From an uncultured Nitrospiraceae bacterium (GTDB taxonomy: Bacteria > Nitrospirota > Thermodesulfovibrionia > Thermodesulfovibrionales > Dissulfurispiraceae): DNA of 64,000 nucleotides. This document shows, one piece after another, positions 43,551 through 46,500 of this stretch. The number at the start of each line of letters is the position of its first letter. The first letter of the stretch is position 1. Location: NCBI GenBank assembly GCA_963705105.1, contig CAVPIW010000016.1, forward strand, positions 1 to 64,000, written 5' to 3'. A program made the position numbers.

Positions 43551-46500
43551 GACGGAGTGGTATGACCCGTCGAACAGGGTGACCTTGACGTCGACCATCT
43601 GGTACCCGGCAACGACACCCTCGCGCATCGTATCGACGATGCCCTTTTCAACGGCAGGGATATACTGCCGCGGGATGGAGCCGCCGACGATCTTGTCGAC
43701 AAACTCGTATCCTCCGCCTCTGGGCATGGGCTCGATCTCGATCCAGCAATCGCCGTACTGGCCGCGGCCGCCCGATTGCTTCTTGTATCTTCCCTGCACC
43801 TTGGCCGAACCTTTAATCGTCTCCCTGTAGGGGATCTTGGGGGTCTTCATCTCCACTTCGGCGCCGAACTTCCTCTTGAGCTTTTCGAGGGCCACTTCGA
43901 GATGGACCTGCCCCATCCCGGAGAGGATCATCTCCCGCGACTCCTCGTCACGGGTGAAACGCAGCGTCGGGTCCTCTTCGAGAATCCTCTGGATCCCGAT
44001 GCTCACCTTTTCCTCGTCGCCCTTCGCCTTCGGGGCTATTGCATACGAGATGATCGGATCGGCGAATTTCACGCGCGGCAGGATCAGGGGATGGTGCTCC
44101 TCGCAGAGGGTGTCACCGACGTTGGTGTCTTTCAGCTTGACGACCGCCCCGATCTCTCCAGGGCCTGCCGACTGGGCGGGGATGTTCTTCTTGCCGAGCA
44201 TCGAAAAGACCTGACCGATGCGCTCCTTCGTTCCCGTCACGGCGTTGAGGACCGTCGAATCGGCCTTCAGGACGCCTGCATAAACACGGAAGTAGGAGAG
44301 TTTGCCCGCATAGGGGTCGGCGATCGTCTTGAACACATAGGCGGTGAGCGGGTCCGTCTGGACCGGCTTTCTCTCTTCTTCCTTGTTGTCCTTCGGGTTC
44401 ATGCCCCTGATCGCGCTGATCCTGCTCATCTCGACGGGCGAGGGGAGGCAAAGCGTTATGGCGTCCATCAACTGCGTGATCCCCTTGTTTTGAGCGGCGG
44501 AACCGCAGGTGACGGGGATGAACTTCCTCGTGATCGATCCTTCCCGGACACCCTTCATGATCTCCTCGGTCGTAAGCTCTCCGCCCTCGAGGTACTTTTC
44601 GAGGAGAGAGTCGTCAGCCTCGGCGATCTTCTCGACGAGCTTCTTCCGGTAGGTCTCAATATCGTCCTTCATGTCAGCCGGGATCTCGCCCTCCGTTGAC
44701 GTGCCGTCTCCGAAGTACAGGGCCTTCATCGCCACCAGGTCGACGAGTCCCCGGAACTGCTCGCCCGAGCCGATCGGAACATACAGGGGGATCGCCTCAG
44801 TTTGGAAATGCTGTTCTATTTCACTGACGGCACGGGAAAAGTTCGCGAATTCCTTGTCCATCTTGTTGACATAGACGATCCTCGGCACCTCGAACTCGCT
44901 CGCGTACCTCCAGACCTTGTCCGTTTCGGCCTTCACGCCCGAAAGGGCGCTCACGATGACGATGGCGCCGTCGGAAACTCTGAGACAGCCCCGGGTGTCC
45001 TCGATGAAGTTGATGAAACCCGGCGTGTCGATGATGTTGACGCGCGTGTCCTTCCATGAATAGAAAGCGATGGCAGACGATACGCTGATCTTCCGGGAAA
45101 TCTCTTCCGGTTCGTAATCCATCGTCGCGTTGCCGGCATCGACCGCCCCGATCCTGTCGATGGCCCCGGCATTGAACAGGATGGCCTCGGCGAGCGAGGT
45201 CTTTCCCGCGCCGCTGTGGGCGATAATCGCCACATTTCTGATTTGATCGACATCCGCTTTTGCCATAACTACCCCCTTTGTATCACTTGGTAAATTTCAG
45301 GACCTTTTCGTTCGTATCACGGCCGGAGGCCGTTCATGCACAGCCTGACTTCTCTATGATCTCCCCGACGATCGGGACGTACTCCGTCTTTCCCTCTATC
45401 CGCTTCGATGCTATTTTCACGATCAGAAACGTCGCGATGAGCAGACCGAAACCTGTCAGGGCCGAGACGATGTCCGGATCGCTGCCGGGGAAAAACCCGC
45501 TCAGATATTCCTTGCCCAGCACGGCGCCCACAATGAGGGCGAGGGCAGGGATGCCGTAGACCATGAGGGCTCCCTTGATGTAGGTATAGGGCCTGAAGAA
45601 CACCCGCACCGTATCGCCCACGGCCGCCCGCACATCGTTGACCGCCTCCACCTCAGCCCCGCCTGCAACGACCTTGCAGACCGACCCTCCCGGGCATTTC
45701 TCTCAGCCGCTCTGCTTCTGAATGGCGACAACGGCCATGGGGCCCTTCAGTTCCCTGACGATCCCGATCTCTTCCACGATTGCTTTCTCTCTTACCTGTA
45801 AGGAAATTAAGAGTAAATTATACCATATAGAGTGAATCAAAGGGTTATAAGCGGGGGGGCCAGGGGAGCTGGGAGGGAAACGGGGCGTTCCTGCCCCATG
45901 ATCGCGGAGCGATGGCGCCGTGCTTCCCTTGCTTCGGCATGTCGTTATCAGTCATGAAGCCGTAAAATGCTCCCTATCGTCACATCCAACTCTTTGGTCC
46001 ATAAACATAAAAATGATCCCTCCGACCAGTGCTTGTGCTATAATGAGCCTAAGAGAACGGGCAGACGGGTATGTCGGCTAATTTTGTTAGCAGGTACAGC
46101 GAGCAATACTTGAGCAATGGCTAAGTCAGTTGGTGCAGGAAGGTGTGTTCATTGCCTTAAGGTGGTACAAGAACGAAATTGGGATCATGTCTTTCCCGAA
46201 TCCTGGTACCCTGAGACAACACCACCTGACATTGCAAAGTGGAAAGCCCCGAGCTGCATAAGATGTAACAGGGATTATGGTAAGATCGAACAGGATCTGC
46301 TAATAATATTTGGTCTATGTCTTGACCCCAATCATCCAGACACAAAAGGTATTGCCAAGAAAGCTCTTCGATCGATCAAACCAGAATATGGCCGAGATCG
46401 AAAAGATCGTCGGGCTCGGGAACGAAAGCTGGAGAAAACACTGCGAGAATTGACTATATTTCAGTCAATACCTGATCATGGCATTTTCCCGAACTTTGGG

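What a model noticed while it worked through the whole genome (the two positions that open the first line are those of the whole stretch)
45334..45843. Selenocysteine form of the RseC/MucC-family membrane protein (U-x-x-C)
Gene g03695 (RseC_MucC, 105 aa as called) is cut at its 5' end by an in-frame TGA. Read through, the N-terminal Cys motif of the family becomes SG-U-EKC-PGGSVC, with the TGA aligned to the first Cys of the CxxC of relatives. RseC/MucC is not in the published lists of selenoprotein families.
Evidence so far: Upstream read-through. Pfam RseC_MucC covers 1-118 of the 129 aa read, profile 14-128 of 130, across the TGA. Relatives L050, L051, L052, L068 and L071 have Cys at that codon (SACEQC, SVCDQC, SMCDKC, SACEAC, TACDHC). 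Two genomes of another family of the order (G001 L069, G026 L070) have TGA at the same codon (KKSS-U-QGC). A hairpin starts about 20 nt after the TGA in all 3 TGA forms. No NCBIfam model hits it. The family is absent from table 1 of PMC13188914.
(Added by a program. Inside this text positions count along the whole contig: contig position 1 is position 1 of the stretch shown here. "Call 12" and the like, gene names such as g00115 and contig names such as C1 are that model's own, and its searches are not shown. The text may have been shortened before it was handed on; [...] marks where a part breaks off. The agent that wrote the report below was given it as the finding of a first reader that could run no searches.)

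Follow-up and report, generated by a model that had tools for sequence, protein, structure and literature searches.

The report
Selenocysteine form of RseC membrane protein
A small membrane redox protein gene (RseC family) recorded only as a shortened fragment is a full-length gene whose internal TGA is almost certainly read as selenocysteine in place of a conserved iron-sulfur-binding cysteine, and this family is absent from the current catalogue of bacterial selenoproteins.

Summary
On the minus strand, an RseC/MucC gene runs from GTG 45777 to stop 45336-45334 (147 codons). Its only interruption is TGA 45705-45703 (codon 25), aligned to the first Cys of the family's invariant CX2CX5C motif.

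The genome has tRNA-Sec, SelA, SelB and a Sec-type SelD. An 8-bp hairpin with loop GGUCG (45681-45661) lies 29 nt after the UGA. It meets the published bacterial SECIS model and resembles the hairpins of this genome's own SelD, FdhA and FlpD genes. None of 29 Cys-form relatives has it. The TGA stands in contigs of four runs from four studies.

I found TGA in the same motif in 16 further species genomes:
- Eight species of one Thermodesulfovibrionales genus (UxxC). Their pN/pS is 0.19 upstream of the TGA and 0.22 downstream.
- Eight deltaproteobacterial-type genomes: four UxxC and four CxxU.

Each has a SECIS-like hairpin, and all those tested have SelB.

RseC is absent from the 119-family catalogue (PMC13188914), and four of my five full-text searches pairing RseC names with selenium terms found no relevant paper; the fifth was uninformative. 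This scan had already flagged a Sec-RseC on other DNA (e1-4323867/8).

Verdict: a genuine, uncatalogued selenoprotein family. Selenium incorporation and function remain untested.

The parts
45337..45777 (-). Full-length RseC/MucC-family coding sequence, 147 codons with Sec at codon 25. The public call is only 45337-45651 (105 aa).
   Evidence: Pfam 86.9 bits over profile 1-128/130. Alignment A1 of 39 sequences. The public protein collection holds only the 105-aa form, P0002.
45775..45777 (-). GTG start codon, homologous to the M/V-E-E-I-G start of relatives.
   Evidence: Three of 29 relatives (L016, L026, L037) also start with GTG at this aligned position.
45703..45705 (-). In-frame TGA read as selenocysteine (U25), the first residue of U-x2-C-x5-C.
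   Evidence: Aligned to invariant C25 of A1. Unchanged in contigs of 4 runs.
45661..45681 (-). SECIS-like hairpin GUCUGCAA-GGUCG-UUGCAGGC. The loop starts 29 nt after the UGA.
   Evidence: (centroid), and (8 bp, -10.0 kcal/mol). It meets the four bSECIS criteria quoted. It is absent from 29 Cys-form relatives.
45334..45336 (-). Terminal stop codon, also TGA, with no SECIS-like hairpin at 16-37 nt.
45817..45825 (-). TGGTATAAT, an extended -10-like promoter element 39 nt upstream of the GTG.
   Evidence: Read. A related tgGTAAAAT element lies upstream of all 13 family-f12 genes printed. The consensus scanner found no two-hexamer promoter, so this is my reading only.
45783..45791 (-). Purine-rich GAGAGAAAG, a possible weak ribosome-binding site 5 nt before the GTG.
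   Evidence: Read. Inference only.
43173..45266 (-). EF-G paralogue (697 aa) 67 nt downstream on the same strand. A conserved neighbour, not part of the selenoprotein itself.
   Evidence: Pfam domains GTP_EFTU, EFG_III, EFG_IV and EFG_C. The same gene follows RseC in L016 and L092.

Best explanation
**What it is.** The gene encodes a full-length RseC/MucC-family protein. The AlphaFold2 model shows an N-terminal beta-barrel domain, two long helices taken to be transmembrane, and a C-terminal strand. By analogy with E. coli RseC both termini would be cytoplasmic. The first Cys of the conserved CX2CX5C motif is replaced by selenocysteine.

**How it is read (inferred).** When the ribosome reaches UGA 45705-45703, SelB carrying Sec-tRNASec binds the hairpin at 45681-45661. 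Sec is inserted and translation continues to 45337.

**Function (inferred).** Taken from E. coli RseC, whose three conserved Cys form an oxygen-sensitive Fe-S cluster and are needed for the Rsx (Rnf-type) complex to reduce SoxR. Here the site would be a U/C/C metal- or redox-active site working with this genome's unlinked Rnf-type complex. Selenium would tune its reactivity or its resistance to oxidation.

**Shown versus inferred.** Shown: all the sequence features, their conservation and their recurrence. Inferred: actual Sec insertion, the cluster, and the partner.
For: **1. Position.** TGA sits at invariant C25 of 39 aligned family members. 29 of 29 fetched order relatives have TGC or TGT there.

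**2. Sec machinery in G000.**
- tRNA-Sec scores 69.2 bits with anticodon TCA.
- SelB, SelA, and SelD with its own TGA are present.
- Two FdhA-like genes and one FlpD gene also carry TGA.

**3. Hairpin.**
- It has an 8-bp stem, loop GGUCG, loop start 29 nt after the UGA, and -10.0 kcal/mol. This meets the published model: loop 3-9 nt, stem 4-16 bp, G in the first two loop positions, spacing 16-37 nt, energy at most -7.5.
- Hairpins of this genome's known selenoprotein genes have loops GUC, GGACU, GUC (GGUCU with a 4-bp stem, my reading) and GGU.
- 15 of 15 Sec codons tested have a qualifying hairpin of at least 5 bp. Among the two Cys codons of 40 all-Cys genes, 25 of 80 positions do, and only 2 of 80 reach -7.5 kcal/mol or lower. 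Two further Sec forms score -12.8 and -9.4.

**4. The TGA is real.** It is unchanged in 3 DNA-run contigs and 1 metatranscriptome-library contig from 4 studies. A strain variant with 21 differences keeps it. 13 of its 15 coding differences are synonymous. The one variant seen upstream of the TGA (codon 17) is also synonymous.

**5. Recurrence.**
- 8 of 13 species of genus g109 have TGA at the same codon. Their pairwise nucleotide identity falls as low as 71%. pN/pS is 0.19 for codons 1-24 and 0.22 for codons 26-141. 21 of 32 variable upstream sites are third positions.
- 8 deltaproteobacterial-type genomes carry TGA at the first Cys (G393, G376, G442, G421) or the second Cys (G317, G319, G333, G336).
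- SelB is present in all 9 TGA-form genomes tested: G000, and 8 of the 16 others.
- The tree's well-supported branches force at least 2 gains within the order.

**6. Sole copy.** This is the only RseC copy in G000.

**7. Function of the motif.** In E. coli RseC the CX2CX5C Cys form an oxygen-sensitive Fe-S cluster and at least two are needed for function (PMC11729352, abstract and passages). G000 encodes RnfD at 388 bits.
Against: - There is no protein-level or selenium-labelling evidence.
- The RNA evidence is one 170-nt contig from a metatranscriptome library, which may contain DNA.
- G000 is the only genome of its genus and the only TGA form seen in its family f1. It sits on a long terminal branch of 0.52.
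- Within G000's own lineage, selection upstream of the TGA rests on a single synonymous variant.
- The 81-nt region as a whole folds no better than shuffles (z = +0.45). The minimum-energy fold does not contain the hairpin; only the centroid does.
- Rfam gave no match.
- The bare 6-bp stems of the g109 forms reach only -7.2 kcal/mol, and G376's hairpin is weak at -2.6.
- The related genomes are kin, so the counts are not independent.
- RseC is not next to rnf genes here.
Confidence: 0.9

Rival explanations
1. Nonsense mutation or pseudogene. A TGC/TGT-to-TGA change truncated the gene, and only a 105-aa N-terminally truncated protein (start GTG 45651), or nothing, is made.
For: - Gene callers record the 105-aa form.
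- A single base change from TGC/TGT gives TGA.
- G000 is the only TGA form seen in its family and has a long branch.
- The truncated part still scores 62.1 bits in Pfam.
Against: - The upstream frame is intact and 63-64% identical to relatives, as is the rest of the protein.
- A SECIS-type hairpin is built from residues (K-V-V-A-G) that differ from the relatives' and is absent from 29 Cys forms.
- The TGA is kept in strain variants whose coding differences are mostly synonymous.
- It is the only RseC copy in the genome.
- The same event recurs in 16 other species, with purifying selection upstream of the TGA.
- The truncated form would lack the whole Cys motif that E. coli RseC needs for function.
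Confidence: 0.05
2. The UGA is read as an ordinary amino acid (Cys, Trp or Gly), by a suppressor or a SelB-delivered non-Sec tRNA, rather than as Sec.
For: - G000 has a second tRNA-Sec-like gene (55.9 bits to RF01852) that ARAGORN reads as tRNA-Cys.
- SelB-dependent Cys insertion at UGA by such tRNAs is in print. I recall this; only the title phrase was seen, in the listing.
Against: - That tRNA has anticodon GCA, which reads UGY, not UGA.
- TGA is also the ordinary stop of this gene and of several relatives, so the code is not reassigned.
- A canonical tRNA-Sec(UCA), SelA and SelD are present.
Confidence: 0.03
3. Assembly or sequencing error at the TGA.
For: The genome is a 19-contig assembly and relatives' titles are metagenome bins, so single-base errors are possible in principle.
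Against: No other letter is read at 45703-45705 in contigs from 4 runs of 4 studies. The hairpin co-occurs with the TGA.
Confidence: 0.01

Closest known systems
E. coli RseC (SoxR-reducing system protein; Pfam PF04246, NCBIfam NF008115)
   Same: - Same Pfam family.
- Same CX2CX5C spacing of the conserved motif.
- Two transmembrane helices.
- A C-terminal segment predicted to pack on the N-terminal domain.
- The genome also has an Rnf/Rsx-type complex.
   Different: - The first conserved Cys is Sec.
- The match to NF008115 is only 24.3 bits against a cut-off of 184, so it is not an equivalog.
- It is not in an rpoE or rnf operon; an EF-G paralogue follows it.
- It lacks E. coli's non-conserved extra Cys.
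Catalogued Sec forms of Fe-S and electron-transfer proteins in Table 1 of PMC13188914. [quoted passage not shown]
   Same: Sec replaces a Cys of a CxxC-type motif in an anaerobe's redox protein, with a bacterial SECIS just downstream. In the catalogue, forms that differ in Sec position or motif are listed as separate subfamilies.
   Different: It is a different fold and family. PF04246 is not in the table, and no NCBIfam selenoprotein model hits this protein. That NF005503 is RnfB-like is my recollection and was not tested.
Sec-RseC found earlier by this scan in another genome (e1-4323867 / e1-4323868)
   Same: Same family, a UxxC reading, a hairpin after the TGA, and the same conclusion that the family is uncatalogued.
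   Different: It lies on other DNA. I could not compare sequences: the look-up by sequence found nothing for this window. The present work adds 16 further genomes, the CxxU form, and selection statistics.

Membership tests
RseC/MucC family (Pfam PF04246) | Match to the family profile above the gathering score, over its full length | tested here: met
   86.9 bits against a cut-off of 24.4, profile 1-128 of 130, across the TGA. The genome search gave 76.6 bits with 1 TGA inside.
RseC/MucC family (Pfam PF04246) | Conserved cytoplasmic CX2CX5C motif (PMC11729352) | tested here: met
   U25-x2-C28-x5-C34. These are the only three invariant Cys columns in 39 sequences.
RseC/MucC family (Pfam PF04246) | Two transmembrane helices after the N-terminal domain, with a C-terminal cytoplasmic tail | tested here: met
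   The AlphaFold2 model has mean pLDDT 77.4, helices 68-95 and 101-127, N-terminal strands, and a C-terminal strand 132-142. This is a prediction only; topology was not measured.
RseC/MucC family (Pfam PF04246) | Works with an Rsx/Rnf-type complex | tested here: inconclusive
   RnfD is present in G000 at 388 bits but on another contig. There is no adjacency and no interaction test.
Bacterial selenoprotein gene (SelB/SECIS-dependent UGA recoding) | In-frame UGA aligned to Cys in homologues | tested here: met
Bacterial selenoprotein gene (SelB/SECIS-dependent UGA recoding) | bSECIS hairpin: loop 3-9 nt, stem 4-16 bp, G in the first two loop positions, 16-37 nt between UGA and loop, energy at most -7.5 kcal/mol | tested here: met
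   Loop 5 nt (GGUCG), stem 8 bp, spacing 29 nt, -10.0 kcal/mol. Criteria.
Bacterial selenoprotein gene (SelB/SECIS-dependent UGA recoding) | Genome encodes tRNA-Sec, SelA, SelB and SelD | tested here: met
Bacterial selenoprotein gene (SelB/SECIS-dependent UGA recoding) | Protein-coding conservation on both sides of the UGA | tested here: met
   In the 8 g109 Sec forms, pN/pS is 0.19 upstream and 0.22 downstream. For G000 itself: 63-64% identity to relatives on both sides and one synonymous upstream variant.
Bacterial selenoprotein gene (SelB/SECIS-dependent UGA recoding) | Selenium demonstrably incorporated at the UGA | not testable with these tools
   Needs 75Se labelling, mass spectrometry or a reporter assay.
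Catalogued prokaryotic selenoprotein families (Table 1 of PMC13188914, 119 families/subfamilies) | Family or its domain ID is listed | tested here: not met
   Table read in section 7, parts 1 and 2. The terms RseC, MucC, PF04246, sigma, Rnf and SoxR each gave 0 occurrences.

The most novel reading that the evidence does not exclude
RseC's first two conserved cysteines are a reactive pair rather than inert cluster ligands. They would be either a selenium-ligated, oxidation-resistant Fe-S site or a selenol/thiol redox switch.

Evolution has swapped either one for selenocysteine at least four times in two phyla: at least two events in Thermodesulfovibrionales, and both the UxxC and CxxU forms in the deltaproteobacterial-type lineage.

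If so, the natural Sec forms mark the catalytic centre of a protein whose mechanism in the Rsx/Rnf system has been unclear since its discovery. They would also provide a natural Se-ligated Fe-S cluster in a membrane electron-transfer accessory protein.
Probability: 0.3. Interest if true: 0.7.

Novelty: new member of a known kind. Interest (0 to 1): 0.6.

Why it matters
**A family to add to the catalogue.** The finding adds a widespread, poorly understood membrane protein family (RseC/MucC/RnfF-type) to the bacterial selenoproteins. The family is missing from the 2026 catalogue of 119 families and has no NCBIfam selenoprotein model. As a result these genes are recorded as 105-aa fragments.

**A clue to mechanism.** Sec almost always replaces a chemically active Cys. 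Its recurrence at either of the first two motif positions therefore points to where RseC's chemistry happens. That bears on how RseC supports Rsx/Rnf complexes: SoxR reduction in E. coli (PMC11729352) and autotrophy in Clostridium ljungdahlii (title seen in the listing).

**A practical consequence.** Annotation pipelines should read PF04246 genes through a TGA at the CxxC in Sec-using anaerobes.

Tried and rejected
- **Metagenome search by protein**: 510 pattern matches, none a relative by tblastn.
0 of 119 encode an RseC relative.
A 6-sequence alignment worked.
- **'1 TGA' rows of the full-length order search**:
  - Four of the six flagged genomes (G004, G070, G078, G108) and the unflagged G001 have no stop in the N-terminal 70 aa, nor does G171. 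These TGAs are terminal stops.
  - G098 was not rechecked.
- **Rfam at E <= 1**: no match.
- **Consensus promoter and terminator scan**: nothing found.
- **PDB by sequence profile**: only one chance-level hit (E 0.8).
- **Foldseek against PDB**: no match at E <= 0.001. The best rows are OB-fold proteins (S17, IF-1, HypC) at E 0.01-0.13. This is a hint that the N-domain is OB-like, nothing more.
- **Whole-region folding**: not better than shuffles.
- **Look-up of earlier findings by sequence**: nothing.
- **Literature.** Five searches pairing RseC names with selenium terms:
  - 'RseC' + 'selenoprotein' returned only chemistry papers, where RSeC is a formula.
  - 'MucC' + 'selenocysteine' returned unrelated papers.
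  - 'SoxR reducing system' + 'selenocysteine' returned 0 papers.
  - 'RseC' + 'selenocysteine' + 'SECIS' as whole words returned 0 papers.
  - 'PF04246' or 'selenocysteine': none of the 10 listed papers holds PF04246, so this search was uninformative.
- **Not seen.** Supplements of the catalogue's source papers were not read, so an RseC entry hidden in a supplementary table cannot be excluded.
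Full report
**The gene**

The called gene is 45334..45651 on the minus strand, 105 aa from a GTG. Translating the same frame upstream meets only one stop, TGA at 45705-45703. With that codon read through, Pfam RseC_MucC rises from 62.1 bits (profile 41-128) to 86.9 bits (profile 1-128 of 130).

The start that matches the relatives' M-E-E-I-G is GTG 45777-45775. Three of 29 relatives also use GTG there. The gene is therefore 147 codons long, with the TGA at codon 25 and a terminal TGA at 45336-45334. It is the only RseC_MucC match in the 4.23-Mb genome. The public protein collection holds only the 105-aa form, P0002, at 98% identity and 71% coverage.

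**Does the organism read UGA as Sec?**

The genome has all the parts needed:
- tRNA-Sec: 69.2 bits to RF01852, and ARAGORN reads anticodon TCA.
- SelB and SelA.
- A SelD that itself carries a TGA.
- Two FdhA-like genes and one FlpD/MvhD gene that also carry a TGA.

**The hairpin**

Downstream of the TGA lies GUCUGCAA-GGUCG-UUGCAGGC (45681-45661). It has 8 base pairs, a 5-nt loop that begins GG, its loop starts 29 nt after the UGA, and its energy is -10.0 kcal/mol. All four criteria of the bacterial SECIS model quoted in the 2026 review are met (section 5 of PMC13188914).

The hairpins after the TGAs of this genome's SelD, FdhA and FlpD genes have loops GUC, GGACU, GUC and GGU. By my reading, the FdhA2 loop is GGUCU with a 4-bp stem. 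The RseC loop fits the organism's own pattern.

The whole 81-nt stretch does not fold better than shuffles (z = +0.45). Only the centroid structure, not the minimum-energy one, shows the hairpin. The hairpin is therefore a local feature.

None of the 29 Cys-form relatives of the order shows an equivalent hairpin in its fold. The 3' arm in G000 is encoded by residues (K-V-V-A-G) that differ from the relatives' (K-[LM]-x-G-N).

**Is the TGA real?**

Contigs of three DNA runs and one metatranscriptome-library run, from four studies, cover 45703-45705 with no other letter.
- One run holds a strain variant with 21 differences over 605 nt. 13 of its 15 coding differences are synonymous.
- The only variant seen upstream of the TGA (codon 17, in the RNA-library contig) is also synonymous.
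- The RNA-library contig (45613-45782) spans the start, the TGA and the hairpin. Such libraries can hold DNA, so this is only a weak hint of transcription.

**Relatives in the order**

Titles of related genome records name Nitrospirota / Thermodesulfovibrionales. 252 of 317 genomes in the order have a homologue.

| Search with the N-terminal 70 aa | Genomes searched | Genomes with a match | With TGA |
|---|---|---|---|
| Relatives sample | 61 | 53 | 3 (G000 and two of family f12) |
| Family f12 | 54 | 50 | 8, all in genus g109 (8 of its 13 species) |
| Family f9 | 57 | 32 | 0 |

In all 8 g109 forms the TGA is at the codon aligned to C25 (KKSS-U-QGC-SSGT-C). All 8 genes are otherwise open over 141 codons and end in TAA or TAG. 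Each has a hairpin (CACCUG-CGUGA-CAGGUG or a variant) whose loop starts 23-24 nt after the UGA. The Cys forms of the genus lack it, or in G291 keep a weakened version.

The eight genes differ by up to 29% in nucleotides. pN/pS is 0.19 for codons 1-24 and 0.22 for codons 26-141, and 21 of 32 variable upstream sites are third positions. The stretch upstream of the TGA is thus maintained as protein in frame with the rest. That is hard to explain unless the TGA is translated.

The other families were seen only through the 150 best rows; 188 matches were not listed. Nine Sec forms in the order is therefore a lower bound.

**A second lineage**

A genome-contig search with a 6-sequence alignment brought in a 'delta proteobacterium' bin, L249 = G317. 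Its RseC has TGA at the second Cys, A-C-G-G-U-A-S-R-K-S-C.
- Among 81 relatives of that genome, 6 of the 67 with a match carry a TGA.
- In an even sample of 131 genomes of its class, 4 of the 107 with a match do, two of them new.

Checked at the codon level:
- G317, G319, G333 and G336 are CxxU.
- G393, G376, G442 and G421 are UxxC.

Each has a hairpin with G in the first two loop positions, with the loop starting 16-29 nt after the UGA. The energies run from -12.8 to -2.6 kcal/mol, and G376's is weak.

SelB is present in all 9 TGA-form genomes tested: G000, and 8 of the 16 others. tRNA-Sec is present in the 3 of those checked. Two Cys-form genomes of g109 also have both.

**Hairpin test**

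15 of 15 Sec codons have a qualifying perfect stem of at least 5 bp. Among the two Cys codons of 40 all-Cys genes, 25 of 80 positions do, and 2 of 80 reach -7.5 kcal/mol. By my count from the printed rows, this is 15 of 40 at the first Cys, with one reaching -7.5.

These genomes are kin, so the counts overstate independence. The independent units are about six or seven lineages.

**Number of events**

On a maximum-likelihood tree of 39 Thermodesulfovibrionales sequences, the Sec label needs 3 changes. Well-supported branches force at least 2: G000 and the g109 clade. The Cys form of G291 is nested among Sec forms with weak support, so it is a possible reversion. G000 sits on a long branch of 0.52.

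I made no tree for the second lineage. Because both positions are used there, at least two more events are needed.

**What the protein is**

The AlphaFold2 model built on the 39-sequence alignment has mean pLDDT 77.4. It shows:
- N-terminal strands.
- A low-confidence loop holding the motif.
- Helices 68-95 and 101-127.
- A C-terminal strand 132-142.

No solved relative exists by sequence. Foldseek gives only weak OB-fold matches.

For E. coli RseC, I read the abstract and passages of PMC11729352. It states:
- Both termini are cytoplasmic.
- The conserved motif is CX2CX5C.
- The three Cys form an oxygen-sensitive Fe-S cluster with [4Fe-4S]-like absorbance in the isolated N-domain.

G000 has exactly U-X2-C-X5-C. 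It also encodes an RnfD homologue on another contig.

The most likely reading is that Sec takes the place of a cluster ligand or a redox-active thiol of this site. Sec at either of the first two positions recalls the UxxC/CxxU pairs of redox selenoproteins (review text).

**Context**

- An EF-G paralogue follows RseC in G000, L016 and L092: 3 of 3 Thermodesulfovibrionales loci checked.
- In G317 the gene starts 7 nt after a Fer4_20/Pyr_redox_2 oxidoreductase and is followed by a BirA-like gene.

**Novelty**

Table 1 of the 2026 review, which lists 119 families and subfamilies, has no RseC, MucC or PF04246 entry. I read section 7 parts 1 and 2, and a term search gave 0 hits.

NCBIfam gives only a sub-threshold hit to the E. 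coli-type RseC model. Four of the five full-text searches pairing RseC names with selenium terms found no relevant paper, and the PF04246 search was uninformative. I did not read the supplements of the primary selenoproteome papers.

This scan had already reported a Sec-RseC on other DNA (e1-4323867/8). The present case is therefore a further instance, now with comparative support.

**Verdict**

This is a genuine selenoprotein gene with probability about 0.9. It is a new family within a well-known kind of system. Function and selenium incorporation are untested.

Noticed in passing
G000 contig C10:176600-176691 (locus L002:1497-1592, minus strand): A second tRNA-Sec-like gene: 55.9 bits to RF01852 (over the cut-off), 96 nt, with a long extra arm. 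ARAGORN reads it as tRNA-Cys with anticodon GCA. It recalls the tRNASec-like tRNACys genes described in some anaerobes (my recollection; only a title phrase was seen in the listing).
   Followed up: partly
window 43173-45266 (-); L016:1941-3434; L092:2010-3398: An EF-G paralogue lies directly downstream of RseC on the same strand in 3 of 3 Thermodesulfovibrionales loci checked, from two families. The reason for this conserved pairing is unknown.
   Followed up: partly
L085-L100, the 30 nt before each start: All 13 family-f12 genes printed have TTTTTT-R-AAAC-N5-TA-TG-[G/T]-TAAAAT ending 5 nt before the ATG. This looks like an extended -10 promoter giving a leaderless or nearly leaderless mRNA. 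G000 has a similar TGGTATAAT, but 39 nt before its GTG.
   Followed up: partly
window 45340-45342 (codon 146): G000's protein ends in a unique ...EKSGCA tail with an extra Cys that none of the other 38 aligned sequences has. The model's C-terminal strand (residues 132-142) stops short of it. A possible partner for the Sec is speculation.
   Followed up: no
window 45319-45333 (-): A perfect 6-bp hairpin, ACGGCC-UCC-GGCCGU, starts one base after the terminal TGA. It has no U-run, so it is not a typical terminator. Strain variants carry indels in 45308-45327.
   Followed up: no
window 46669-49721: ORFs upstream of RseC look like mobile-element genes by their translations: a transposase-like 240 aa, an AAA-ATPase-like 315 aa, and an integrase/transposase-like 435 aa. 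In several relatives a LeuA-like gene sits directly upstream instead. The locus may therefore be rearranged in G000. No family search was run on these ORFs.
   Followed up: no
L253:121-1491 and 1501-1935 (G317): In the CxxU lineage, RseC starts 7 nt after a Fer4_20 + Pyr_redox_2 oxidoreductase (GltD/NfnB-like), a candidate electron donor.
   Followed up: partly
L100 (G291): A Cys form (TGT) is nested among the eight Sec forms of genus g109 and keeps a weakened copy of their hairpin (5 bp, -5.5 kcal/mol). It may be a recent Sec-to-Cys reversion (weak tree support).
   Followed up: partly
same genome, other contigs (earlier notes e1-7898244 and e1-2511811): Earlier agents of this scan reported candidate Sec codons in this genome's NuoB (at an Fe-S ligand) and in a split YeeE. 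I did not check them.
   Followed up: no
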